Below, piece after piece: positions 45,636-59,564 of a DNA stretch of 64,000 nt. Positions within the stretch are counted from its first letter, which is position 1. Each line of letters begins with the position of its first letter. Below the pieces are notes generated by a model that was given only the letters and a program-made list of their open reading frames with translations, did not search any database and was not told the origin of the DNA. The position numbers were made by a program, and so were the translations under genes. This DNA comes from a virus: IMG/VR virus record IMGVR_UViG_3300042922_000923, positions 67,111 through 131,110 of that record; one strand, written 5' to 3'.

Positions 45636-46766
45636 ATGGAAAATTCAGATGTAAATTCAAGCTTATCAAATGAAGAGCTTTTAAGATTATACAGAAGTAC
45701 AAATAATAGAAAATACTTAAATTTACTTTTTGCAAATGTAGAGAACCTAGTTTACTATGCGTGTAGTCATACTTCTTCTGGAAAAAAGCTTATGACTGTA
45801 TATAAATTATCACTAGAAGAAGTTAAAAGTATAGCTTTTTTGGGAGTAAGTAAGATAATAAATACTTATTCTTTTGAGAGAAACATAAAATTTTCTACTG
45901 CTATGTATAGTTATATAATTCGTGAATTTCATAAAAGTTTCGATTATTACAATAGAAAAAATAGGGAACTTAATTTAGACAGTTTACAAGGTTCCTGTTC
46001 TCAAAGGGATGATTTTGCTACACCTGTAGCAATGTCTGAACAATTAAAGGATGAAACTATTGATATAGAAGAACATGTATTAGACGAAATAGAATACTCT
46101 GAATATTCTTTAAAATTAAATAATGCTCTAGAAGTTATGTCTGAACGCTCTAAATTTATAATACATGAATATTTTTATAATAATAAAACCAATGCAGACA
46201 TAGCTAAAGTACTAAACTTTAATGCAAACTCAGTCAGTAGGTTAAAGATTGAAATACTAAAGGAATTAAAAAAGATGATTATAGATCCAGAGTATATAGA
46301 GATAGCTAAGACACACGAAAAGGATAAATCACGTGGAGTACTAAGAAATCTTCCAAAAGATTATAAAAAGTATACTAAGCTACTAAGTGACAAAGAAAAA
46401 AAGGCTTTAAATATGAGACTTAATGGAAAGACATATGAAGAAATTGGAAAGAAACTTAGTATACATCAAGGTACAGTTGGTTCTATTCTTACTAGAGTAG
46501 TAAATAAACTCGGTGAAGCAACGATAAGAGATGCTGGTAAATGTAAAACTAAAGAATTTTATGAGACTCTATATAAGAAGTATCCAAAGTATCTAAATGA
46601 AATAAGCTTAACAGACCAGAGGCTATTAGAGTTTAAGTATAAAGAAAATAAAAAATATTCTGAAATAGCAAAAATGTTAGATAAAAAGGAAACTGCTGTT
46701 TGCGTTTTAATTCGTAACGCTGAGTATAGATTTGGGAACGTTATTATGAGATATGAAGAAATATAG
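45636..46766 (+). CDS. Phage sigma-70-family factor with three tandem region-4-like HTHs
   Basis: Region 2 (AFLGVSKIINTYSFERNIKFSTAMY) plus three HTH segments: TNADIAKVL, TYEEIGKKL and KYSEIAKML. Confidence 0.8.
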   Translation: MENSDVNSSLSNEELLRLYRSTNNRKYLNLLFANVENLVYYACSHTSSGKKLMTVYKLSLEEVKSIAFLGVSKIINTYSFERNIKFSTAMYSYIIREFHKSFDYYNRKNRELNLDSLQGSCSQRDDFATPVAMSEQLKDETIDIEEHVLDEIEYSEYSLKLNNALEVMSERSKFIIHEYFYNNKTNADIAKVLNFNANSVSRLKIEILKELKKMIIDPEYIEIAKTHEKDKSRGVLRNLPKDYKKYTKLLSDKEKKALNMRLNGKTYEEIGKKLSIHQGTVGSILTRVVNKLGEATIRDAGKCKTKEFYETLYKKYPKYLNEISLTDQRLLEFKYKENKKYSEIAKMLDKKETAVCVLIRNAEYRFGNVIMRYEEI

Positions 46767-50696: not shown

Positions 50697-51155
50697 GTGA
50701 TAAAATTGGATACAAAAACTCATGTTGCAGCTGGAGTTTTGGTAGCATTACCTTTTATTTCAATAACAGATCCCATAAGTACCTTAGGAATAATAGGAAG
50801 CATAGCTCCTGACTGGGACAAAATACTGAAGATAAAACATAGGACATTTACCCACTGTTTAATTTCTTTGTGTGGAAGTTGTGTCTATATGAATTGTATC
50901 AATAATAAATTAGGAATTGTCTGGTTTGTAACTTATTCGAGTCATTTGTTTCTTGATAGCCTTACGGTGCGTGGAGTGCCTTTGTTATATCCATTTAAAA
51001 AGGACACGTATGGACTGAAGCTATTTACTACTGGAAAAAGGTTCGATAAGTGCCTTGAGCTTGCATGTAACTTTGGAAGTGCCTTATATATCATTAGTAA
51101 ACTTGAAGGGACTGCAACTCATATTATAAATAAACTTGCGACAATTATTAAATAG
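50697..51155 (+). CDS. Membrane metal-dependent hydrolase (YdjM-like)
   Basis: TH, APDWD, HRTFTH, SHLFLD and GVPLLYPF motifs. Confidence 0.82.
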   Translation: MIKLDTKTHVAAGVLVALPFISITDPISTLGIIGSIAPDWDKILKIKHRTFTHCLISLCGSCVYMNCINNKLGIVWFVTYSSHLFLDSLTVRGVPLLYPFKKDTYGLKLFTTGKRFDKCLELACNFGSALYIISKLEGTATHIINKLATIIK

Positions 51156-51178
51156 GTGCCTAAACGGTGCCTATTTTT
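51151..51178 (+). terminator. Intrinsic terminator
   Basis: aaataggtgcc-taaac-ggtgcctattttt. Confidence 0.7.
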
Positions 51179-51940
51179 ATTTAGGAAAAATAACGAAAAT
51201 AAAAGAATGCTTTTTCCTATAAGGTGCCTTAGTTTTTTTAATGGAATTTAAAAGGCCAGGGGGGGGAGTATCGGTGCTTAGTGGGTTCGTGGGACTTAAG
51301 AAAATTTATAAACTAATCTAAGAAGCGAAGAAAATCGAGAAGTGAGTAAATAACTAGAGGCGCGGTAGGAATACAAGCACGCTGCATGGGACCCAAAAAT
51401 ATTGTCGAATTTTAGGCCAGGGTGGGTACTTCTTTAAATGGTATAAAGTACTATATAATATAGTTATTGCATTAGTTCAAAATATAAACAGTTATTGAAT
51501 AACTTTTACAGTGTTCAAATAATAAACTAGTATACATTACTTTATAAAGATATATTAAAAAATTAATAAGTAGTATTGTATACTATATTCTTTCATAGAT
51601 CCCGGTAGAAACATTAAGAGTTATTATATACTACATTGTACAATAAACAATACTATTATAATTAAAATATAGCCTATTTAAGGCCAGTAAATATTCTTTT
51701 AGTAGAATATACGTTAAATTAATTTTAACGCGTTGTGGAGTCTATAGGATATATTCTATTTAATTCTGTATAGGGTTATATATAGTTTATAGAATTAATT
51801 ATATTGCCTCTCTCGTCCTTCTCCTGCCCTTCTATATAGTTTGTCGTGTGTTATATCCTTTTTAATATTGTCTCCGTAAACGGTCTGTATAATGCATAGA
51901 AAATAATATAAAAATTTCTAATATTTTTTTAAAAAAGGTA

Positions 51941-51969
51941 TTGACTACGTGTATTATTGGTAGTATACT
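51941..51969 (+). promoter_or_regulatory. Sigma-A early promoter P1
   Basis: TTGACT-N17-TATACT with upstream A/T tracts. Confidence 0.8.
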
Positions 51970-52061
51970 TAGTTCATAAGCAAGGGACAAACACAAAATA
52001 CAAATTACTTAATAACTTGTTTATGACAGTTTTACACCAAAAAATATTTTTAAAAAAGATA

Positions 52062-52090
52062 TTGACAACGTGTAAGATTGGGATTATAAT
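52062..52090 (+). promoter_or_regulatory. Sigma-A early promoter P2 (perfect consensus)
   Basis: TTGACA-N17-TATAAT with upstream A/T tracts. Confidence 0.9.
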
Positions 52091-52139
52091 AATAACATAG
52101 ACAACAAGGGAGCGACAAAATGTATTAGCGATAGTAAGC

Positions 52140-52152
52140 AGTTCTTTGACAA
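52140..52152 (+). promoter_or_regulatory. Putative rrn-type boxA antitermination element
   Basis: AGTTCTTTGACAA about 45 nt after the P2 start region; resembles Firmicute rrn boxA (GTTCTTTGAAAA). Confidence 0.55.
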
Positions 52153-52267
52153 TTGAATTAAGATTTTAGAAATAGAAATTTTGCGTTTCTATTAAGTTTA
52201 AATTGAAACTAAAATCTTTTAAATTAAATTAAATTCTTTATAGATTCATTATACAGTATATTCTGTA

Positions 52268-52587
52268 TAGTGAGTTTATATAAGGGTATTCAAAATTTAA
52301 ATTATTGGAGTTGATTTTATGAATAAATTACAATTTTTAGATAGAGAATACATAAAAAATGAGGTTATAAGACTTTTTAAAAATTCTATATATAAGCCTT
52401 TTAAATTTTCAGTTAATTTATTTAATAATACAGTGTGGGTATATTGTAACATACTAGAAACAAATAAATTCAGCGAAAAAATGATTAATATAGAATTACA
52501 GTTTACTAATTCAAATGAATTAAAGTTTGGAAAAGTAATTGAAAGTGCATTTTAATACCTATTGAATACCCTTATACAAACTCACTA
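52268..52587. repeat. 26-bp inverted repeat pair flanking ORF 52319-52555
   Basis: 52268-52293 tagtgagtttatataagggtattcaa versus 52562-52587 ttgaatacccttatacaaactcacta; 25/26 complementary. Confidence 0.9.
52319..52555 (+). CDS. Early hypothetical protein
   Basis: ORF with GGAG RBS. Confidence 0.65.
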   Translation: MNKLQFLDREYIKNEVIRLFKNSIYKPFKFSVNLFNNTVWVYCNILETNKFSEKMINIELQFTNSNELKFGKVIESAF

Positions 52588-52619
52588 GTGAGTAAATAAG
52601 AATAAAAGGAGATGCATGT

Positions 52620-52885
52620 ATATGTTATATGTTACAATGACTGATAAATTTATGAGTGGTTGGGGGCCTTGTGAAAATAAGATTAATAAATTAATATTTG
52701 AGTGTGAAAATAGAGAAGAGGCAGACATAGTTATGACTAATGCAGAAAATAGAGGCGATATGAAAAACATAAATTTAGCAACTAAAAAGCCTTATTACTC
52801 AACCTCTAGATACTACGCTCAAACTAAAAATAAAGAGGAATACCCTTCATGGTATAAACAAGGGTTTTTCAAAAAAGATAACTAG
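52620..52885 (+). CDS. Early hypothetical protein (start approximate)
   Basis: YVTMTDKFMSGWG; AAGGAG RBS; stop codon lies in hammerhead stem I. Confidence 0.65.
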
Positions 52886-52941
52886 CCTGACGAGTCTTTG
52901 AAAATTAAGACGAAACTGGAGAAGCTTCTCCAGTCGCTAGT
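52881..52941 (+). ncRNA. Hammerhead ribozyme, type I (HH1)
   Basis: ACUAGC-CUGACGA-GUCUU/AAGAC-GAAA-CUGGAGA/UCUCCAG-UC^GCUAGU; GUC cleavage triplet, predicted cut after 52935. Confidence 0.93.
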
Positions 52942-52976
52942 AATAGCAAGAATTTAATTTAAGGAGATGCATTAAC

Positions 52977-53339
52977 ATGAGTTTAAAAGAAAGATTTGAG
53001 GAAGTTCAAGAAAATATTAATAATTATGACAGAACAGAGGCTGTTGAAAACTTAAAGAGTATTGCTTCAGATTATGGACAAGAAAGAGAAGTTGATAGCT
53101 TTATTCATACCGATGACGTTGACGATTTTGTGGAAAGGCGTTTTCAGTCAGGAGGTTGGCAAGGTGTAGCATGTTGTTTAACTGACTTAATTCATAATCA
53201 AAGTGATGACTATTATAATATAGATGGTTACGAAAATTTAGAGTTAGTTACAGTCGATTTGCTACAAAATACTCTAGATGATTTAAAAAGAGCTTTATCT
53301 GATGAACTTGAAGAAGAAGAGGAAGAAGAACTCGACTAG
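52977..53339 (+). CDS. Highly acidic early protein
   Basis: D/E-rich, ends in EEEEEELD. Confidence 0.75.
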   Translation: MSLKERFEEVQENINNYDRTEAVENLKSIASDYGQEREVDSFIHTDDVDDFVERRFQSGGWQGVACCLTDLIHNQSDDYYNIDGYENLELVTVDLLQNTLDDLKRALSDELEEEEEEELD

Positions 53340-53401
53340 ACGAGTATAAACAGTGTTTAGGTCTAGTGCGTTGTAGAGGCTATAAAGCTTCTACAGGTAC
53401 A
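53330..53401 (+). ncRNA. Pistol ribozyme 1
   Basis: P1 ACUCG/CGAGU, pseudoknot ACUAGA/UCUAGU, AUAAACAG, P2 UGU/ACA, GCGUU, P3 hairpin, AGG^U (cut 53397/53398). Confidence 0.9.
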
Positions 53402-53430
53402 AAGAATTTAATTTAAAAGGAGATGTTTTT

Positions 53431-54060
53431 ATGAATATGACAGCTGAAACAACTAAATATATAAACTTTGGTGATGAAAACCCACTTAGCTATTATGGTA
53501 TCTGGTTAAGAAAAGATTCTGATAACGAAAAGTGTTTTGATATTGTAAAAGTAGATAATTTAGAGTGGTGCAGTGGTTCGACTGAAAATAGATATAGGCT
53601 TGAAGAAGGTTCTATTGACATTACTGATGATTGGATTAACTGGTCTGAGGTCTATAATTGTTATGACTTAAATGATGAATCTAGTGATGAAGAAAAGGCA
53701 ATTTCAGCAGTTCAAAATTATACTATTCTTGAATTTGGTTCTACAAAAGACGTAAAAACAACAAGAGAAGCTTTGAAGTTCCTAGAGGAACATGAAATAG
53801 TCCTTGGTGAAACTGTAGAAGATTATGAAAAGAGAATTGCTTCTGAGGTATTTGACATTTTAAACGATGCAGTAATGACTCTAGGAACTAATACAAATGA
53901 TTCCTTTATAGAAGATGAAGAGGAACTAAAGGAAGCTCAAAAGTTATTAAAACAACTTGAAGAGGAAGAAGAGAATCAAGAAGAATTATGTGATAAATAC
54001 AATTATGAACTTGATGACATTAAAGAGTATATAAGCGATACTTATGGAATGAAATATTAA
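53431..54060 (+). CDS. Acidic early protein
   Basis: 209-aa D/E-rich ORF with the conserved leader. Confidence 0.75.
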   Translation: MNMTAETTKYINFGDENPLSYYGIWLRKDSDNEKCFDIVKVDNLEWCSGSTENRYRLEEGSIDITDDWINWSEVYNCYDLNDESSDEEKAISAVQNYTILEFGSTKDVKTTREALKFLEEHEIVLGETVEDYEKRIASEVFDILNDAVMTLGTNTNDSFIEDEEELKEAQKLLKQLEEEEENQEELCDKYNYELDDIKEYISDTYGMKY

Positions 54061-54061
54061 A

Positions 54062-54131
54062 ACTCGACTATGCGAGTATAAATAGACCTTAAGCATAGTG
54101 CGTTATGGAGAATAACTTCTCCATAGGTGGT
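54062..54131 (+). ncRNA. Pistol ribozyme 2
   Basis: P1 ACUCG/CGAGU, pseudoknot ACUAUG/CAUAGU, P2 ACC/GGU, P3 AUGGAGAA/UUCUCCAU; cut 54127/54128. Confidence 0.9.
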
Positions 54132-54170
54132 AGTAATACCAAAAAGAATTTAATTTAAGGAGACGATATT

Positions 54171-54551
54171 ATGAAACTTGAAAAAGCTTTGGAAAATTTT
54201 AAAAATGAAAATAAGGAAAATTGGTTAATTACTTGTGTTGTTTGTGACATAGAGGATAAAGAACCAGAAGACCAACAAAGTTATATACATGACGTAATTA
54301 ATAATGGTTGTGAAAGTGGTATAGTGGGGTATCTTATATACTACACAGATACAGACGAATTTTTTGCTAAACATTATAAAGATATTCTTGAATTGATAAA
54401 CAATTATAGAGAGGAAACTGGAGAAGTACCAAACCTTTCTGAGTGGAATGCAGAAAAATTATCATGGTTTGCATATGAAAGAGCTATGTATCTATTAAAT
54501 GAATACTTAGAAGGATACGATATATCAGACGAAGATGAAGAACTCGACTAG
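54171..54551 (+). CDS. Acidic early protein
   Basis: GCESGIVGYLIYYTDT motif; acidic C-terminus ending EELD. Confidence 0.75.
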   Translation: MKLEKALENFKNENKENWLITCVVCDIEDKEPEDQQSYIHDVINNGCESGIVGYLIYYTDTDEFFAKHYKDILELINNYREETGEVPNLSEWNAEKLSWFAYERAMYLLNEYLEGYDISDEDEELD

Positions 54552-54614
54552 GCGAGTATAAATAGAACTTAAGCCTAGTGCGTTGGGGATAAGTGCGTAT
54601 AGATCCCCAGGTGT
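54542..54614 (+). ncRNA. Pistol ribozyme 3
   Basis: Pseudoknot ACUAGG/CCUAGU, P3 GGGGAU/AUCCCC; cut 54611/54612. Confidence 0.9.
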
Positions 54615-54644
54615 AAGAATTTAATTTAAAAGGAGAAGATTATC

Positions 54645-54983
54645 ATGAGTCAAAATTCAGTAGTAGAAGGAACAGTAATTAACTTATATGTGTTTGATTC
54701 AGCAGGAATACATGAAAAGCTTGCTAAAAAGTATAATGCATTAGTTAGATTCAGAAATAAGAAAACAATCCTTGAAAATGGTTGTTTAAATGCTGAAATA
54801 GAGTGCATTAGATACGTGAGAAAAGCAATAGAAAAGTCTTTTTGGGACACTAGAGATAGCATAGAGATAGTTACTAAGAACTATGGAACTTTTACAACTA
54901 GTAAGCCTGAGGAAATAAAAATTGATAGAAAGTATAATACTATAGAGTTTGGGAACTACTTCAATATACTTGATTGTAACTAG
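54645..54983 (+). CDS. Early hypothetical protein
   Basis: ORF with the conserved leader; stop codon in hammerhead stem I. Confidence 0.7.
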   Translation: MSQNSVVEGTVINLYVFDSAGIHEKLAKKYNALVRFRNKKTILENGCLNAEIECIRYVRKAIEKSFWDTRDSIEIVTKNYGTFTTSKPEEIKIDRKYNTIEFGNYFNILDCN

Positions 54984-55040
54984 CCTGACGAGTCTTTGAA
55001 AATTAAGACGAAACTGGAGAAGTCATTCTCTAGTCGCTAG
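54980..55040 (+). ncRNA. Hammerhead ribozyme, type I (HH2)
   Basis: CUAGC-CUGACGA-GUCUU/AAGAC-GAAA-CUGGAGAA/UUCUCUAG-UC^GCUAG; predicted cut after 55035. Confidence 0.93.
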
Positions 55041-55078
55041 AAGATAGCAGAGAATTTAATTTAAAAGGAGAAGATAAT

Positions 55079-55624
55079 ATGTTAAAAATTAATGTAAAAG
55101 GTATTGAAATAGCAATAGACTATAGTAAAGGTATAGAAGAAACTATGCTAATTACAGCTAATGGAAAATATATTCATAACTTAGAGTTAATTATTCAAGA
55201 AGATTACATTCTCTTTACATGGACATGTAGACAACATAAAGAGACAGTAATAAATATTAATAATGGACAACACATTGATAAAAACCTAGCTAGTTTTAAT
55301 GATTTCTTAGCTGATTATTTTACTATTACAAAAGAGAATAGTCTAGATGCAGATTGTGTTATGAACAGTCATAGGGTTGCACTAAAAGAAATTATTGTAA
55401 TTATGGAACAAGTTTTTATGCTTATAACTAAGGATTTATGCAAAAAAGAAGAACAGTTTATGCTAGAACTTAAAGACGATACTGCTAAAAATTCACTTCT
55501 AGAAGCAATAAGAATGTATCAACATTGGTTAAGTGAAGCGAATATGTCAGCTGATGAAGAAGAAGAGACAGAGGGTTATGCTGATTCACTAGAAGATATA
55601 GAAAAACAATTAACACACGACTAG
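55079..55624 (+). CDS. Early hypothetical protein with acidic C-terminus
   Basis: ORF with the conserved leader. Confidence 0.72.
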   Translation: MLKINVKGIEIAIDYSKGIEETMLITANGKYIHNLELIIQEDYILFTWTCRQHKETVININNGQHIDKNLASFNDFLADYFTITKENSLDADCVMNSHRVALKEIIVIMEQVFMLITKDLCKKEEQFMLELKDDTAKNSLLEAIRMYQHWLSEANMSADEEEETEGYADSLEDIEKQLTHD

Positions 55625-55683
55625 GCGTGTATAAATAGAGTTTAAGCCTAGTGCGTTATGGAGAATAACTTCTCCATAGGTAC
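55615..55683 (+). ncRNA. Pistol ribozyme 4
   Basis: P1 ACACG/CGUGU (compensatory), pseudoknot ACUAGG/CCUAGU; cut 55680/55681. Confidence 0.9.
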
Positions 55684-55714
55684 AAAGAATTTAATTTAAA
55701 AGGAGAAGATTATT

Positions 55715-56338
55715 ATGAAAAATTATATGCAAACTGAGACTTATATGGAACATTGTATAGAGGAATTTTATGACATATTAGAACAAGAAAGAGAATCTAA
55801 ATTACAGGACTTTCTAGACGTTGAATTTAATAAAAGTACTGAATTAGATATACTTTTAACTTTTGATGCTTTAATAGTACTATGTCGTGATAAGTATAAA
55901 GACTTCTTTGAAAAAACAAAAAAAGAATATGTTCATAGTTTATGTACTACTCTATCTGATGAAAATTGTGCAGAAATATTTAATGCTTATCGTGAGTACG
56001 AAACCGTTGAGTATACTAAGTATGAAGATGGAACAGACGTAACTTATTGTAATTATTGTGGAAAGCCTCTACTTAGAGATTCTGACATAAGATTTATAGA
56101 AGGTGATGGTTCTTATTGCTACGAACAAATAAAAGAAGTAAAAGATATATCAATAACTTGTATTGGTAAAGAATTATTGAACTGTGGTTATTCAGAGAAG
56201 GATATAATGTTTATGATAGGACCAGATTACAATGAATATTCAGAGGCTATATCTAGTGAAGAAGGTTTTGATAGTTATAACTTCTTATGTGAAAATGGTT
56301 ATGCAATGCCAGAAATATTCTGTACAACTGCTGAATAA
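55715..56338 (+). CDS. Acidic early protein with CxxC
   Basis: 207 aa; CNYCG motif. Confidence 0.72.
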   Translation: MKNYMQTETYMEHCIEEFYDILEQERESKLQDFLDVEFNKSTELDILLTFDALIVLCRDKYKDFFEKTKKEYVHSLCTTLSDENCAEIFNAYREYETVEYTKYEDGTDVTYCNYCGKPLLRDSDIRFIEGDGSYCYEQIKEVKDISITCIGKELLNCGYSEKDIMFMIGPDYNEYSEAISSEEGFDSYNFLCENGYAMPEIFCTTAE

Positions 56339-56346
56339 TATAAGAA

Positions 56347-56415
56347 ACACGACTAGGCGTGTATAAATAGAGTTTAGGCCTAGTGCGTTATGGAGAATAG
56401 CTTCTCCATAGGTAC
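56347..56415 (+). ncRNA. Pistol ribozyme 5
   Basis: Near-identical to pistol 4; cut 56412/56413. Confidence 0.9.
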
Positions 56416-56446
56416 AAAGAATTTAATTTAAAAGGAGAAGATTATT

Positions 56447-56872
56447 ATGAATACTGTTGTAGTAAATAGCTATGAATCTAATTTTACAGTGGAGTTTGAA
56501 AACTTACAAAAGGTTATAAAAAAAGAAGGTTGGCAGAGTGTAAAATACTTCTTAGACAATTACACTTATGACGATGGAGAAGACATTTATAATATATGTA
56601 GGTCTAATGGTTATGTTATAGATGAAAGTTTGACTAACGAGTGTCTAAGAAAATTAATTAAAGAAGATTATATTGTTAGAAATGAAAATCCTTGTTTTTT
56701 AAAACATGATTATCTTATAACAATATATAGCTATAAAGATGGAATGTATATAACTGATTGTAGTATTGATGCAGGAGAATTTTCAAGTACTATTGAGGAA
56801 GTTGAAAATATGCTACTTAGTGCTGGATTCAAAAGCATAGGATTACAAACTCGACTAGGCGAGGATAAATAG
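56447..56872 (+). CDS. Early hypothetical protein
   Basis: ORF reads into pistol 6 (…QTRLGEDK*). Confidence 0.7.
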   Translation: MNTVVVNSYESNFTVEFENLQKVIKKEGWQSVKYFLDNYTYDDGEDIYNICRSNGYVIDESLTNECLRKLIKEDYIVRNENPCFLKHDYLITIYSYKDGMYITDCSIDAGEFSSTIEEVENMLLSAGFKSIGLQTRLGEDK

Positions 56873-56922
56873 GACTTAAGCCTAGTGCGTTAGATAGGAT
56901 CTATATGGTTCTATCTAGGTGT
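56849..56922 (+). ncRNA. Pistol ribozyme 6
   Basis: P1 CUCG/CGAG, pseudoknot ACUAGG/CCUAGU, P3 AGAUAGGAUC/GGUUCUAUCU; cut 56919/56920. Confidence 0.85.
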
Positions 56923-56953
56923 AAGAATTTAATTTAAAAGGAGATGTATTAAT

Positions 56954-57415
56954 ATGAGTAAAGTTTATGTTGTAGAATGTCCAGAATTTAATGATTTTTT
57001 AGGTATGTTTGAAGAGGAAGAACTACGAGAAGAGACTTGTAGTATTTGTGGTAGTTCTTTATTTGTAAGAGATACTTGCACTGGTGATGAATATATTTGT
57101 GCTGATTGTGGTGATAAGATTGTAAAAAATCATATGGAAGCAAAGGAGCTTGATAGTGTTACAGGATACCCAGAGTGGATACTAGCAATATTAAGAGAGT
57201 CTGTTAACATTGATAGATATGATACGCAACATGATGAAGAATTTAATACTAAGTGGTCTAAAGACGAAGTGTTTGATTCTGTTATGAGGTATGAAGCAAC
57301 GTATAATCCTACTAAAATTAAGGAATTTATAAGAGATATATATGGCGTAGATTTATTTACTAAAAATCCAAAAGATGACACTAAATTATGTCTTGACACT
57401 TATAAACTACGTTAA
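56954..57415 (+). CDS. Early protein with zinc-ribbon-like motif
   Basis: CSICG...CADCG. Confidence 0.72.
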   Translation: MSKVYVVECPEFNDFLGMFEEEELREETCSICGSSLFVRDTCTGDEYICADCGDKIVKNHMEAKELDSVTGYPEWILAILRESVNIDRYDTQHDEEFNTKWSKDEVFDSVMRYEATYNPTKIKEFIRDIYGVDLFTKNPKDDTKLCLDTYKLR

Positions 57416-57425
57416 AAGTGTGAAG

Positions 57426-57493
57426 AGTCGTTGCAACGACTATAAACAGACCTTAGGTTGCAAGCGTTGAAGAGGTTAACCTCTTCAGGTGGT
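57426..57493 (+). ncRNA. Pistol ribozyme 7 (most divergent copy)
   Basis: P1 AGUCG/CGACU, pseudoknot UUGCAA/UUGCAA, P2 ACC/GGU, P3 GAAGAGG/CCUCUUC; cut 57489/57490. Confidence 0.9.
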
Positions 57494-57523
57494 AAGAATT
57501 TAATTTAAAAGGAGAAGATAAAT

Positions 57524-57787
57524 ATGAAGGAAATAAAGACGTTGATAAGAATTGCTAAGGACTGGGAATATGACTTCAAAGGTGACTTATTAGAAGGTAT
57601 TTTAGATAATGAGAGTATTAAATCATTTTTAGACACTCTAATTGATGAATGGATACCTGAATGGAAAGAAGAAAATCCTGAAAATGAAGAGATGTATGAT
57701 AGATATAGTTGCAGACTAGAAGCTTTAAATAAAGAAGTAATAGAAGAAGAATATGCAGTTATTCAAGAACTTATAGCATTATCTTAG
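57524..57787 (+). CDS. Small acidic early protein
   Basis: D/E-rich ORF with the conserved leader. Confidence 0.72.
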   Translation: MKEIKTLIRIAKDWEYDFKGDLLEGILDNESIKSFLDTLIDEWIPEWKEENPENEEMYDRYSCRLEALNKEVIEEEYAVIQELIALS

Positions 57788-57795
57788 ATGTAGAG

Positions 57796-58014
57796 GTGAG
57801 TATTATGAATAAGTCTAATTGGTTAATTGAAGGTCTAGAGTATGCTAAAAGGAATAAAATAGTTAGTTTTGTTATTGTAGGCTGCAAGTTAAAATATGCA
57901 ACAACTTATCCAGTAGAAGGAAGTTTTAAGCACATAATCGACTTAGAAAACAATAGCGAAACTGTAATTCCATTAAAGGGAATAATAAAGAGTGGAATTT
58001 ATAACATTGGATAA
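57796..58014 (+). CDS. Small hypothetical protein
   Basis: ORF with GAGGTG; start at 57796 or 57805. Confidence 0.6.
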   Translation: MSIMNKSNWLIEGLEYAKRNKIVSFVIVGCKLKYATTYPVEGSFKHIIDLENNSETVIPLKGIIKSGIYNIG

Positions 58015-58032
58015 ATAAATATTTTTTTACCA

Positions 58033-58061
58033 TTGACTACGTGTAAAAATGGGAGTATAAT
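58033..58061 (+). promoter_or_regulatory. Internal sigma-A early promoter P3
   Basis: TTGACT-N17-TATAAT; spacer begins ACGTGTA as in P1 and P2. Confidence 0.85.
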
Positions 58062-58094
58062 AAAAGCATATTAAGAGATTGGAGATGTTGATAA

Positions 58095-58472
58095 ATGAGT
58101 AATATAACAGAAATTTTAGAAAGAGAATATAAAAAGGCTACATGTGACAAGAAAGTGCTAGTGGAAAAAGCTACAGCAAGACTAAGAACTCTTAGCATCA
58201 ATTTCAAATCATTTTTAAGAACTAAACAGTTACCAGCAAGAGAGTTTCCTAAAAGCTTATTCCATTATCAAGGTGTACAACATAGCTTTAATTTTAAAAT
58301 AAAGGATTCAGGAAATACTATTGAGGTTTGTATGTATACTATCGACATTGATAATTCAAATAATAATAGTACACAAACGTATAAAATAAGTAGTTTAAGT
58401 GATATTGATAACGAAAAATTTGATTCATGGGTATTATCTAATGCAATGGAACAATTCTTTAGAGAAAATTAA
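58095..58472 (+). CDS. Early hypothetical protein
   Basis: ORF with GGAG after P3. Confidence 0.7.
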   Translation: MSNITEILEREYKKATCDKKVLVEKATARLRTLSINFKSFLRTKQLPAREFPKSLFHYQGVQHSFNFKIKDSGNTIEVCMYTIDIDNSNNNSTQTYKISSLSDIDNEKFDSWVLSNAMEQFFREN

Positions 58473-58543
58473 ACTCAACTAAGTGAGTATAAATAGTGGT
58501 TAGGCTTAGTGCGTTGGAGAGGTATAGTGCTTCTCCAGGTCCA
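58473..58543 (+). ncRNA. Pistol ribozyme 8
   Basis: P1 ACUCA/UGAGU, pseudoknot ACUAAG/CUUAGU, P2 UGG/CCA, P3 GGAGAGGUA/UGCUUCUCC; cut 58539/58540. Confidence 0.9.
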
Positions 58544-58576
58544 AAATAAAATTTAATTTAGAAGGAGAAGATTATT

Positions 58577-59134
58577 ATGGGTACTTTAACAAAAAAACAA
58601 GAAGGAATAATTTCTAAGGTGGTTAATTCAGAGACTATAGCTAAAGACTGGTTAAAGACTCCTTTTAAGACTACTAATGGAATTTTAGCTTGCGATGGAT
58701 ACAGAGTATTATCAAAATCTATTAATGCTAGTGAAGTTTCTGGAGACTACAAGTATGTTACTAGGTTTCTAGAACAGGATGACAAATTAAAAGTTGTTGA
58801 TATTAAATTAAAAAGAACTGAGGTTATAAAGGCGATAACAGGTACTAAAAATGATGTAATAGTACTTACTTCTACAGGTTCAAAATTTGAGATTATAAAT
58901 ATAGTACAAAATAAAGTACTCTATGAAACTGAGTTTAAAGGTAAAAAGTGTTATATAGGTATAAATGCTAAATATCTTAGGGATGCATTAAACTTTATAA
59001 GCAGCAAGGAAGTAGAAATATCTTTTGGAAACAAAATATCACAAATCACATTTCTAGCTCCTGAGTATAATTGCATGGTGTTACCAATAAGATTATGTAA
59101 TAAAGAATGGATAGCTAATGTAGAGAACAGATAA
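58577..59134 (+). CDS. DNA polymerase III beta-clamp-like protein (partial, C-terminal domains)
   Basis: ACDGYRV (cf. ATDGHRL), IGINAKYLRDAL (cf. IGFNxxYLxDAL) and MVLPIRL (cf. LVMPxR). Confidence 0.65.
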   Translation: MGTLTKKQEGIISKVVNSETIAKDWLKTPFKTTNGILACDGYRVLSKSINASEVSGDYKYVTRFLEQDDKLKVVDIKLKRTEVIKAITGTKNDVIVLTSTGSKFEIINIVQNKVLYETEFKGKKCYIGINAKYLRDALNFISSKEVEISFGNKISQITFLAPEYNCMVLPIRLCNKEWIANVENR

Positions 59135-59203
59135 GTTTCTAAGGGATTTTACTTAAAAGTCCCTCTCCATATAATAATTAAAATAATGAAAGGAATGATT
59201 AAC

Positions 59204-59410
59204 ATGTTTAAAAAGTATAAAACATATGAAAGTTTGGAAGGAAAGGTATCAAAGGCATTAAATAAGTCTTTAGGTATGATGAAAGGACTTAATTTAGCTT
59301 CTGCTATGATAGCTGTAGAGGTTTGGGATAATGCAAAACAAGAGCAAAGAGTCCCAACTGATAGAGATATTTCAAGAGGGATCTATGAGTTTTTTGGTAG
59401 TGTTAGATAA
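59204..59410 (+). CDS. Small hypothetical protein
   Basis: ORF after AAGGA; followed by a hairpin and U-run at about 59428-59471. Confidence 0.6.
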   Translation: MFKKYKTYESLEGKVSKALNKSLGMMKGLNLASAMIAVEVWDNAKQEQRVPTDRDISRGIYEFFGSVR

Positions 59411-59564
59411 TAAATATTTGTACTTCTAAGTGGATAATAGCTTAAATAATTAGAGCTTTGTCCACTTTTTTATATCTATAGGGACAAAACTGTGCAATTT
59501 GCTAATAGTGTGACATATAATACTATAAGGTAATTAATACTGTATTAAAATTGGAGTGTGTTAT

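What the first reader, a model, noticed from the sequence alone, without database searches (positions are those of the whole stretch)
52881..58576. Ribozyme-punctuated phage early operon: 10 self-cleaving ribozymes (8 pistol + 2 hammerhead) at gene junctions
Seen: ten gene junctions between 52.9 and 58.6 kb contain, on the coding strand, either a pistol-like element (53330, 54062, 54542, 55615, 56347, 56849, 57426, 58473) or a type-I hammerhead (52881, 54980). I saw no intrinsic terminator between them. Established: pistol ribozymes have P1, a pseudoknot, a UAAA linker, P2, GCGUU and P3, and cut at GG^U; hammerheads have CUGAnGA/GAAA cores and cut after GUC. Seen: the predicted cuts fall 33, 43, 33, 34, 34, 34, 34 and 37 nt (pistols) and 41 and 43 nt (hammerheads) before the next ATG. 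Inference: the phage uses two unrelated ribozyme classes interchangeably to cut one long early transcript into mostly single-gene mRNAs with standardised 5' ends, without host RNases. This would be a protein-free analogue of RNase III processing of T7/SPO1 early mRNA. I do not recall a dense mixed-class array of this kind being described as a phage expression system, but I could not check the literature.
Basis: partly seen in the sequence, partly recalled or inferred. Interest (0 to 1): 0.97.

Follow-up and report, generated by a model that had tools for sequence, protein, structure and literature searches.

The report
Ten-ribozyme array punctuating phage operon
A soil phage related to Bacillus phage SPO1 places a self-cutting RNA plus a standard short leader in front of ten neighbouring small genes, probably to chop its transcripts into single-gene messages; this is a very dense example of an arrangement already described in phages in 2011.

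Summary
Rfam finds eight pistol ribozymes at the stated coordinates (53.8-68.3 bits, cut-off 34.5). The two hammerheads miss Rfam's cut-off. However, they are the only two matches in the 131-kb genome to a strict type I hammerhead descriptor, against 0 matches in 100 simulated genomes. The cut-to-ATG distances are exactly those reported.

Ten of 14 gene junctions carry a ribozyme followed by one conserved leader, which occurs nowhere else in the genome. The pistol copies covary in all four helices. A distant relative has seven pistols in the syntenic place, with shuffled gene order and pistols where this phage has hammerheads. An unrelated phage mixes hammerheads and pistols in front of a different uniform leader.

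Self-cleavage into mostly single-gene mRNAs is the best reading, but I found no RNA data. Three promoters, one of them internal, argue against a single transcript. Clustered ribozymes flanking single phage genes, with this same hypothesis, were published in 2011 (PMC3088659), and this scan has noted similar arrays in other genomes. I rate it a new variant of a known kind.

The parts
51941..51969 (+). Promoter copy 1 (TTGACT-17-TATACT) with an upstream A/T tract
   Evidence: 10 of 12 consensus positions. (families D6, D7): one of only 3 copies in the genome of the motif TTGACWACGTGTA.
52062..52090 (+). Promoter copy 2 (TTGACA-17-TATAAT, 12 of 12), the likely main start of the array transcript
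52257..52598 (+). 37-nt inverted repeat (84% complementary) bracketing the first small ORF (52319-52555). This junction has no ribozyme.
   Evidence: I1. Function not tested.
52881..52941 (+). Type I hammerhead. Predicted cut after 52935, then a 41-nt leader to the ATG at 52977. The upstream ORF's stop codon (ends 52885) lies in stem I.
53330..53402 (+). Pistol. Cut after 53397, 33-nt leader to the ATG at 53431. The upstream stop codon lies in the P1 loop.
54062..54132 (+). Pistol. Cut after 54127, 43-nt leader to the ATG at 54171.
54542..54616 (+). Pistol. Cut after 54611, 33-nt leader to the ATG at 54645. The upstream stop codon lies in the P1 loop.
54980..55040 (+). Type I hammerhead. Cut after 55035, 43-nt leader to the ATG at 55079. 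The upstream stop codon lies in stem I.
   Evidence: Its first 46 nt (with 3 nt of flank) are identical to the 52881 copy (D8).
55615..55685 (+). Pistol. Cut after 55680, 34-nt leader to the ATG at 55715. The upstream stop codon lies in the P1 loop.
56347..56417 (+). Pistol, 97% identical to the 55615 copy. Cut after 56412, 34-nt leader to the ATG at 56447.
56849..56924 (+). Pistol. Cut after 56919, 34-nt leader to the ATG at 56954. The upstream ORF ends 24 nt inside the ribozyme.
57426..57494 (+). Pistol with a different P1 and pseudoknot sequence. Cut after 57489, 34-nt leader to the ATG at 57524.
   Evidence: Reciprocal best match to the pistol that precedes the orthologous gene in L011.
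58033..58061 (+). Promoter copy 3 (TTGACT-17-TATAAT) inside the array, before ORF 58095-58472
58473..58544 (+). Pistol. Cut after 58539, 37-nt leader to the ATG at 58577.
52319..59410 (+). Fifteen small ORFs (72-209 aa) served by the array. Most have no known function.
   Evidence: One ORF is DUF7222 (54171-54551). One has a weak beta-clamp C-terminal domain match (58577-59134). ORF 53431-54060 resembles the protein annotated 'OCR-like antirestriction protein' in Bacillus phage Anthos.
59428..59473 (+). Hairpin followed by a U-rich tract; the probable terminator that ends the unit
   Evidence: z = -3.0. The simple terminator scan missed it because it only accepts loops of 3-8 nt.

Best explanation
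The block is an expression device built from repeated modules of the form [self-cleaving ribozyme]-[standard 33-43-nt leader with AAGGAGA]-[small ORF].

Inferred mechanism: host RNA polymerase starts at the phage's three dedicated consensus promoters and reads through to the hairpin at about 59.45 kb. Each pistol or type I hammerhead folds and cuts itself as it is made. This would give eight single-gene fragments of 424-732 nt and a 1050-nt fragment carrying three genes. The last pistol cut leaves two more genes up to the hairpin.

Both classes cut near their own 3' end. The whole folded ribozyme (with a 2',3'-cyclic phosphate) therefore stays as a structured 3' cap on the upstream message. 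The downstream message starts with a 5'-OH and only 5-6 ribozyme nucleotides, followed by an unstructured leader whose Shine-Dalgarno sequence lies 20-31 nt from the new end. The effect would be to insulate each gene's translation and stability from its neighbours, much like engineered ribozyme insulators.

Shown here: the motifs, their placement, covariation, leader uniformity, recurrence in relatives and class swapping. Inferred: cleavage in vivo, co-transcriptional timing, and any effect on stability or translation.
For: 1. Eight full-length pistol matches well above Rfam's cut-off. Two canonical-core type I hammerheads are unique in the genome, with 0 hits in 100 simulated genomes, and fold as predicted.
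2. Ten of 14 junctions between 52319 and 59410 carry a ribozyme.
3. The leader motif GAATTTAATTTAAAAGGAGA (up to 3 mismatches) occurs 8 times in 131 kb, all behind ribozymes. The other two junctions carry a variant 2 nt shorter.
4. Across 14 pistols (8 from this window, 6 from L011), 95.5% of cells pair and 19 of 22 pairs have changes on both sides. 0 of 500 shuffles reach the observed covariation score, and slid controls pair at 33-43%. All 6 pseudoknot pairs covary.
5. In centroid folds, seven of ten predicted 3' products leave the Shine-Dalgarno sequence and start codon unpaired (53398, 55681, 56413 and 57490 have no pairs at all). 56920 and 55036 have one 3' hairpin each that pairs the start codon (56920) or its last base (55036). 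58540 has weak pairs (-3.7 kcal/mol) flanking the Shine-Dalgarno sequence and over the start codon. The three longer leaders (41-43 nt: 52936, 54128, 55036) form a small hairpin at the very 5' end that uses the released ribozyme strand.
6. Relative G001 has 7 pistols within 4.3 kb, upstream of a protein that is 25% identical to the window's 523-aa ORF.
7. Unrelated complete phage G062 has 4 descriptor hammerheads (a fifth seen by eye) and 3 pistols in 3.3 kb, and all 8 are followed by a different uniform leader.
8. No convincing terminator lies inside the array.
9. Perreault 2011 showed that arrays of three hammerheads cut completely in vitro (PMC3088659).
Against: - There is no RNA evidence: no RNA run holds the stretch (reported only as a blank).
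- The hammerheads fall below Rfam's gathering scores. Their stem I is only 5-6 bp with no identified tertiary contact, and I found no conserved pseudoknot partner for loop II. By my recall, such minimal forms are slow at physiological Mg2+.
- In 6 of 10 modules the upstream stop codon lies inside the ribozyme's 5' part, so terminating ribosomes could unfold it.
- By my recall, the 5'-OH product of the glmS ribozyme is degraded by RNase J1 in Bacillus subtilis, so a 5'-OH end is not automatically protective.
- The internal promoter shows that cleavage is not the only way these genes obtain their own 5' ends.
- In cultured phages Anthos and C30-1, the single pistol is followed by a promoter-like site before the gene (by eye). 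That points to 3'-end formation rather than leader standardisation.
- Cassette order rests on the original assembly.
Confidence: 0.7

Rival explanations
1. The modules persist mainly as DNA-level joints. Under this reading, the repeated ~100-bp ribozyme-plus-leader sequences are sites of homologous recombination (or a selfish repeat) that shuffle, duplicate and exchange small accessory genes, as PeSL cassettes do in T4-type phages. RNA cleavage would be secondary.
For: - Five array genes have 43-55% identical orthologues in L011 but in another order (window A, B, E, I, J; L011 J, I, B, E, A). Three genes downstream of the array keep their order.
- One gene has its own pistol in L011, but in the window it follows its neighbour after an 8-nt gap with no ribozyme.
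- Neighbouring copies within one genome are 97% and 99% identical, which suggests duplication or gene conversion.
- The PeSL precedent comes from PMC2839356 (abstract read).
Against: - Recombination needs only sequence identity. It does not explain compensatory changes that keep four helices and a pseudoknot paired in diverged copies.
- It does not explain why two unrelated ribozyme folds occupy equivalent places.
- It does not explain the fixed strand and fixed distance to the ATG.
- Gene order in both assemblies could be affected by the repeats.
- This reading is compatible with the main explanation rather than exclusive of it.
Confidence: 0.15
2. Cleavage is conditional rather than constitutive. 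Because the upstream stop codon sits in P1 or stem I, translation of the upstream gene (or Mg2+ level, or a factor binding the leader) would decide whether each ribozyme folds. The array would then tune relative expression instead of simply chopping the transcript.
For: - In 6 of 10 modules the upstream ORF ends inside the ribozyme, and in two more it ends 0-1 nt before it.
- Perreault 2011 discusses regulated cleavage for slow phage hammerhead variants (PMC3088659).
Against: - Four modules have the stop codon outside the ribozyme but otherwise look the same.
- No ligand-binding or switch element is visible, and the leaders are mostly unstructured.
- By my recall, pistols cut fast in vitro and transcription outruns ribosomes in Bacillus. 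I tested neither here.
Confidence: 0.1
3. The gene-length fragments are re-ligated into circular or spliced RNAs, either by reversal of the ribozyme reaction or by an RtcB-type ligase acting on the 5'-OH and 2',3'-cyclic phosphate ends.
For: - Cleavage would give exactly the ends that such ligases join (general knowledge).
- One fragment, between the pistols at 55615 and 56347, would carry matching P2 halves at its two ends (alignment).
Against: - P2 halves of successive ribozymes mostly do not match.
- The longer leaders fold their released strand into a local 5' hairpin, which would work against re-association.
- Perreault 2011 looked for spliced or circular products from hammerhead arrays and found none (PMC3088659).
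Confidence: 0.03

Closest known systems
Clustered hammerhead ribozymes flanking single genes or short gene blocks in prophages (Perreault et al. 2011, PMC3088659)
   Same: Several self-cleaving ribozymes lie on the coding strand between small phage genes of varying identity. The authors proposed processing of long phage transcripts into single-gene mRNAs and showed complete in vitro cleavage of three-ribozyme arrays (passages read).
   Different: In this window there are ten elements in 5.7 kb rather than about three. Eight of them are pistols. Every one is fused to a single conserved leader with a Shine-Dalgarno sequence. The ribozyme class is swapped at orthologous positions in a relative, and the array has its own promoter family. 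I could not see that paper's figures or supplements, so denser examples may be shown there.
Pistol ribozyme class (Rfam RF02679; Harris et al. 2015, PMC4604425; Weinberg et al. 2015, not held)
   Same: Full-length matches to the model with P1, pseudoknot, AUAAA linker, P2, P3 and the G-U cut site. The Firmicutes-phage context matches what is reported for the class.
   Different: The census started from 90 IMG/VR stretches that match a pattern for this pistol subtype. Of those, 77 records were searched: 67 have one pistol, 5 have two, 4 have three and 1 has four. This record has 8 and its relative G001 has 7. Of five cultured Herelleviridae-like phages, two have one pistol and three have none.
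RNase III processing of T7 and SPO1 early transcripts (recalled, not checked here)
   Same: A long early transcript from strong host-type promoters would be cut between genes into defined mRNAs with structured 3' ends. This phage's major capsid protein is about 60% identical to those of Spounavirinae.
   Different: The cutter here would be the RNA itself, giving 5'-OH and 2',3'-cyclic phosphate ends rather than 5'-phosphate and 3'-OH ends. This is a resemblance in how it works, not family membership.
PeSL regulatory cassettes of T4-type phages (Arbiol et al. 2010, PMC2839356; Comeau et al. 2014, PMC4122927)
   Same: A short conserved regulatory cassette is repeated between small non-essential genes of a plastic region, and gene order is shuffled between relatives (abstract read).
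   Different: PeSLs consist of a promoter plus a terminator stem-loop and act on transcription. The modules here consist of a ribozyme plus a leader and act after transcription. Mini-circles were not tested.
Engineered ribozyme insulators placed before genes in synthetic operons (recalled, not checked here)
   Same: A self-cleaving ribozyme placed just upstream of the ribosome-binding site removes variable upstream RNA and gives every gene the same 5' end.
   Different: This is a natural system, with two ribozyme classes, in a phage. The effect on expression has not been measured.

Membership tests
Pistol ribozyme (RF02679) | Covariance-model score above the curated gathering score over the full model | tested here: met
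   8 of 8 sites score 53.8-68.3 bits against 34.5, over model positions 1-68.
Pistol ribozyme (RF02679) | P1, P2 and P3 helices plus a pseudoknot between the P1 loop and the P2-P3 junction, supported by covariation | tested here: met
   Paired cells: P1 98.6%, pseudoknot 97.6%, P2 76.2%, P3 99.1%. 19 of 22 pairs changed on both sides; 0 of 500 shuffles reach the observed score. P2 is the weakest helix: its outermost pair fails in 8 of 14 copies.
Pistol ribozyme (RF02679) | Conserved linker (AUAAA), GCGU and the G-U cut site | tested here: met
   In the 14-sequence alignment, TAAA, A-G, TTA and GCGTT are invariant. All 8 window copies have GGT at the cut site. Among the relative's copies, one (r306) has A in place of the cut-site G, and one (r1884) has T in place of the preceding G that closes P3 but keeps G-T at the cut site.
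Pistol ribozyme (RF02679) | Mg2+-dependent self-cleavage at the G-U linkage | not testable with these tools
   Needs in vitro transcription. No RNA run is available.
Hammerhead ribozyme, type I | Core C3 U4 G5 A6 N7 G8 A9 / G12 A13 A14 / A15.1-U16.1, H17, with no mispair next to the core (criteria quoted from PMC3088659) | tested here: met
   Both sites read CUGACGA...GAAA...UC, with G-C, A-U and C-G pairs adjoining the core. Stem I is open, stems II and III are closed.
Hammerhead ribozyme, type I | Rfam gathering score | tested here: not met
   Hammerhead_1 21.1 bits against 34; Hammerhead_3 24.7 against 48.5; RAGATH-1 hammerhead 20.9 against 56.3. I file these sites as hammerheads on the descriptor, fold and context evidence, not on Rfam.
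Hammerhead ribozyme, type I | Tertiary contact between stem I and loop II that gives fast cleavage at physiological Mg2+ | tested here: inconclusive
   Stem I is 5-6 bp with no bulge. The stem II and loop II segment is nearly identical in hammerheads from 5 other IMG/VR loci whose stems I and III differ, which hints at a function. I found no conserved pairing partner in the flanks.
Clustered phage ribozyme arrangement (Perreault 2011) | Several ribozymes on one strand, flanking single genes of a phage | tested here: met
   Ten ribozymes at 10 of 14 junctions, all on the + strand. The phage is a myovirus with sheath, portal, major head and terminase genes.
Clustered phage ribozyme arrangement (Perreault 2011) | All members of the array cleave within the native polycistronic RNA | not testable with these tools
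   Needs transcription of fragments from the 52.1-59.5 kb region.
PeSL-type shuffling cassette | Cassette made of an early promoter plus a terminator stem-loop | tested here: not met
   The modules hold a ribozyme and a leader. Promoters occur at only 3 places, and there is no terminator between genes. This is a resemblance in evolutionary behaviour only.

The most novel reading that the evidence does not exclude
The ribozyme-plus-leader module is a portable, class-agnostic 'gene socket'. It supplies stop codons in all three frames (9 of 10 modules), a self-made 3' cap for the gene before it, and a uniform translation start for the gene after it. At the DNA level it would be the joint at which anti-defence and host-takeover genes are swapped, duplicated and reordered between phages. 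That would make it a post-transcriptional counterpart of integron or PeSL cassettes. It appears to have arisen independently with different leaders in unrelated phages (G000/G001 and G062).
Probability: 0.3. Interest if true: 0.75.

Novelty: new variant of a known kind. Interest (0 to 1): 0.55.

Why it matters
The biological role of most bacterial and phage self-cleaving ribozymes is still described as open (review PMC6765202). This array gives that question an unusually clean test bed.

- It has ten elements of two classes in one unit.
- Every element has the same leader.
- The predicted product sizes are exact.
- Natural class swaps exist at orthologous genes.
- Cultured Bacillus phages carry a single homologous pistol before an Ocr-like gene.

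If cleavage proves necessary for expression, this would be a natural equivalent of the ribozyme insulators used in synthetic operons, and a source of ready-made orthogonal parts. If the modules also mediate cassette exchange, they would help explain how phages diversify their accessory genes.

Tried and rejected
- **RNA evidence.** No RNA holder is listed for window:52000-59500. Only two DNA runs from soil metagenomes hold it, and they may be its source.
- **Laying contigs of X1 and X2.** The pieces are identical to the window, but they break at the repeated modules and no piece spans the array. The low-depth 'joints' at 85% likeness probably come from other pistol copies or other phages. I draw nothing from them.
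- **Close relatives among 50,697 phage records.** Megablast of the 7.5-kb array found no match. blastn of one 116-nt module found one 42-nt match, in a Cellulosimicrobium phage.
- **Relatives through the 523-aa protein in IMG/VR.** None found. Relative G001 came from the leader motif instead.
- **Other ribozyme classes.** Rfam at E up to 10 on 51.5-60.5 kb gave only the pistols, the two weak hammerhead matches and chance-level hits such as caiA and snoRNAs.
- **Mixed classes in other pistol loci by Rfam.** Seven loci gave only pistols and one tRNA at gathering score. My descriptor then showed that Rfam misses short type I hammerheads there.
- **Pistol relic at junction 52556-52615.** I rejected this idea. 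The hairpin there is part of a 37-nt inverted repeat around the first ORF, and its fold is not better than shuffles.
- **Pseudoknot partner for hammerhead loop II.** No conserved partner found.
- **Promoter scan.** Overall the count is not above chance (75 found, 66.6 +/- 8.5 expected). I rely only on the three repeated consensus copies.
- **Literature.** Searches found no paper describing a dense pistol array with a uniform leader. This covers only the held library. Weinberg 2015 and Lihanova & Weinberg 2021 are not held, and supplements are closed, so such a description may exist.
- **Earlier scan notes.** Notes on other genomes report similar arrays. Look-ups for relatives of this stretch returned nothing.

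Full report
**1. The observation**

Rfam finds eight pistol ribozymes (RF02679) in the 64-kb window. Scores are 53.8-68.3 bits against a gathering score of 34.5 (repeated on the sub-region). The window is the last 64 kb of a 131,110-bp IMG/VR virus record. A search of the whole record finds the same eight pistols and no more. The other 67 kb has no Rfam match at gathering score.

The two proposed hammerheads do not reach Rfam's cut-offs. Hammerhead_1 scores 21.1 bits (cut-off 34) at 52881-52941, and Hammerhead_3 scores 24.7 bits (cut-off 48.5) at 54959-55019. I therefore wrote a strict type I descriptor: open stem I, CUGANGA, closed stem II, GAAA, closed stem III beginning A-U, then UH, with at least 4 bp per stem. 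It finds exactly two sites in both strands of the genome, 52881-52941 and 54980-55040. It finds none in 100 simulated genomes of the same length and dinucleotide tendencies. Both sites adopt the three-way junction as their minimum-energy fold (z = -4.5 and -3.2). They meet the core criteria quoted by Perreault et al..

The predicted cuts lie 41, 33, 43, 33, 43, 34, 34, 34, 34 and 37 nt before the next ATG. My first script took the wrong GGT at two sites, and one search corrects it.

**2. Anatomy of the block**

Between 52319 and 59410 there are 15 small + strand ORFs and 14 junctions, and 10 junctions carry a ribozyme. The four junctions without one are as follows.
- The first junction, where a 37-nt inverted repeat brackets the first ORF.
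- An 8-nt gap between 57787 and 57796.
- The junction 58014-58095, which holds a promoter.
- The junction 59134-59186.

Each ribozyme is followed by one leader, (A)GAATTTAATTTAA(AA)GGAGA. GGAG ends 8-10 nt before the ATG and begins 20-31 nt from the predicted new 5' end. With up to 3 mismatches, the 20-mer occurs 8 times in 131 kb, always behind a ribozyme of this array. The other two junctions carry a variant 2 nt shorter (families D3 and D4).

In 6 of 10 modules the upstream ORF's stop codon lies inside the ribozyme's 5' part, either the P1 loop or hammerhead stem I. In 9 of 10 the ribozyme contains stop codons in all three frames.

Both ribozyme classes would leave only 5-6 of their own nucleotides on the downstream product. 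Folding the predicted 3' products gives centroid structures that leave the Shine-Dalgarno sequence and start codon unpaired in seven of ten; four of these have no pairs at all. In 56920 and 55036 a 3' hairpin pairs the start codon (56920) or its last base (55036). In 58540 weak pairs flank the Shine-Dalgarno sequence and cover the start codon. The three longer leaders (41-43 nt) form a 4-5-bp hairpin at the extreme 5' end that uses the released ribozyme strand. That hairpin accounts for their extra length. It may also make cleavage irreversible or protect the end; this last point is my inference.

**3. Transcription**

A promoter family found nowhere else in the genome (TTGACWACGTGTA ... TATAAT or TATACT, with an upstream A/T tract) occurs three times, at 51941, 52062 and 58033, all on the + strand (families D6 and D7). 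The only + strand terminator-like site between them is a weak match inside a gene. A strong hairpin followed by a U-rich tract lies at 59428-59473.

The array is therefore probably covered by read-through from the two upstream promoters plus an internal start before the last genes. It is not one single transcript. 'Early' is inferred from the consensus host-type promoters, the small genes of unknown function, and the position next to a 1.2-kb non-coding region opposite the structural genes.

**4. What the phage is**

The rest of the window encodes tail sheath, portal, major head protein, large terminase and tail lysins on the - strand, and a sigma-factor-like protein on the + strand. The major head protein is about 60% identical to those of Bacillus and Lysinibacillus phages of Herelleviridae, subfamily Spounavirinae. 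GC content is 30.8%. The two DNA runs that hold the sequence are soil metagenomes.

The array genes are mostly without known function. The N-terminal half of ORF 53431-54060 resembles proteins of Bacillus phages, one of which is annotated 'OCR-like antirestriction protein'.

**5. Evidence for selection on the RNAs**

I aligned the 8 window pistols with 6 from relative L011 and counted pairs for a structure of P1, pseudoknot, P2 and P3.
- 95.5% of cells pair.
- 19 of 22 pairs have changes on both sides.
- 0 of 500 shuffles reach the covariation score.
- Sliding the partners by 1-3 columns drops pairing to 33-43%.
- All six pseudoknot pairs covary.
- P2 is the weakest helix, at 76% paired.

The copies are therefore not just repeated DNA; each keeps the fold. 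However, neighbouring copies within one genome can be 97-99% identical, which points to duplication or gene conversion within arrays.

**6. Relatives and recurrence**

The leader motif led to L011, part of G001, a 39-kb fragment. G001 carries 7 pistols within 4.3 kb. They lie upstream of a 517-aa ORF that is 25% identical (E = 4e-27) to the window's 523-aa ORF.

Five array genes have 43-55% identical orthologues in L011, but in a different order, while three downstream genes keep their order. The orthologues of the two genes that follow hammerheads here (52977 and 55079) follow pistols in L011, and I found no hammerhead in L011. One gene that has its own pistol in L011 follows its neighbour in the window after an 8-nt gap with no ribozyme. 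The pistol before the 87-aa gene is the reciprocal best match of the pistol before its orthologue. At least that ribozyme therefore travels with the gene downstream of it.

For a census, I scanned IMG/VR with a pattern for this pistol subtype, which hit 90 stretches. Of those, 77 records were then searched with RF02679. 67 have one pistol, 5 have two, 4 have three and 1 has four (L019 was not held). This record (8 pistols) and G001 (7) are therefore the extremes of that sample.

My hammerhead descriptor, run on 89 loci (830 kb), hit 6 loci. One is L077, part of G062, a complete 60-kb phage with terminal repeats. It has 4 descriptor hammerheads, a fifth imperfect one that I saw by eye, and 3 pistols in 3.3 kb. 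All 8 are followed by a different uniform leader containing AACCCTAAA and no Shine-Dalgarno sequence. The mixed-class design with a per-phage standard leader therefore recurs in an unrelated phage.

A hammerhead core pattern hits at least 120 IMG/VR stretches, some with three copies about 400 nt apart.

Of five cultured relatives, Anthos and C30-1 have one pistol each and the other three have none. In both, the pistol lies upstream of the homologue of ORF 53431-54060, and a promoter-like site lies between the pistol and the gene (by eye).

**7. Mechanism**

The best reading is co-transcriptional self-cleavage that turns the transcripts into eight single-gene fragments of 424-732 nt, one 1050-nt fragment with three genes, and a final two-gene piece. 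Each upstream product would be capped at its 3' end by a compact ribozyme. Each downstream product would begin with a short open leader and a strong ribosome-binding site.

The motifs, their placement, the covariation and the recurrence are shown. Cleavage, its timing and its effects on stability and translation are inferred.

Points against:
- There is no RNA evidence.
- The hammerheads are minimal-looking and fall below Rfam's cut-offs.
- Stop codons inside the ribozymes could let ribosomes interfere with folding.
- By my recall, RNase J1 attacks the 5'-OH product of the glmS ribozyme.
- The Anthos layout suggests that forming the 3' end of the upstream message may matter as much as standardising the 5' end of the next one.

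Rivals are: modules acting mainly as recombination joints, like PeSLs (PMC2839356, abstract read); conditional cleavage; and circularisation.

**8. Comparison with what is known, and novelty**

Perreault et al. 2011 (PMC3088659; passages read) reported multiple hammerheads flanking single genes in prophages. They proposed processing of long transcripts into single-gene mRNAs, showed complete cleavage of three-hammerhead arrays in vitro, and looked for circular or spliced products without finding any.

Harris et al. 2015 (PMC4604425) state that pistols lie near phage genes in Firmicutes and were found by searching near ribozyme-associated genes. A 2019 review still calls the function open (PMC6765202).

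Earlier notes of this scan describe a six-pistol array and a 15-kb mixed array in other genomes and reached the same placement. I did not test those notes.

I found none of the following in the held literature:
- the density (10 ribozymes in 5.7 kb);
- the uniform leader;
- the class swap at orthologous genes;
- the cassette reordering;
- the dedicated promoter family.

Weinberg 2015 is not held and supplements are closed, so this absence is provisional.

**Verdict.** This is a real and striking array, and a new variant of a known kind rather than a new system.

Noticed in passing
window 52257-52598: A 37-nt inverted repeat (84% complementary, arms 268 nt apart) brackets the first small ORF of the unit (52319-52555). 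In RNA it would form a long duplex around the whole gene. It could be an RNase III-type site or the ends of an inserted element.
   Followed up: partly
L011 3535-3652: In the relative's array, one junction has the usual leader but no known ribozyme. Instead it has two strong hairpins (a bulged stem of about 9 bp and a perfect 10-bp stem), and Rfam finds nothing at E up to 5. It is a candidate for a different processing element.
   Followed up: no
L077 3400-7100 (record G062): An unrelated complete 60-kb phage carries 4-5 type I hammerheads followed by 3 pistols in 3.3 kb. Each precedes a uniform leader that contains AACCCTAAA and has no Shine-Dalgarno sequence.
   Followed up: partly
L228 (Bacillus phage Anthos MW281503.1, 154732-154799) and L224 (Bacillus phage C30-1): Two cultured Bacillus phages each carry one pistol just upstream of the homologue of window ORF 53431-54060, which is annotated 'OCR-like antirestriction protein' in Anthos. 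A promoter-like site lies between the ribozyme and the gene.
   Followed up: partly
window 51160-52300: A stretch of about 1.2 kb has no ORF of 60 aa or more and lies between the hydrolase-like gene's terminator (51150-51176) and the array. It is unusually G-rich at 51250-51420 and holds the two tandem promoter copies.
   Followed up: no
window 45636-46766: A 376-aa + strand ORF matches phage RNA polymerase sigma-factor families. This suggests the phage redirects transcription after the early phase.
   Followed up: no
L036, L037, L044, L058, L074: Hammerheads in five other IMG/VR loci share an almost identical stem II and loop II segment with the window's hammerheads, but their stems I and III are entirely different. 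This hints that loop II has a conserved role.
   Followed up: partly
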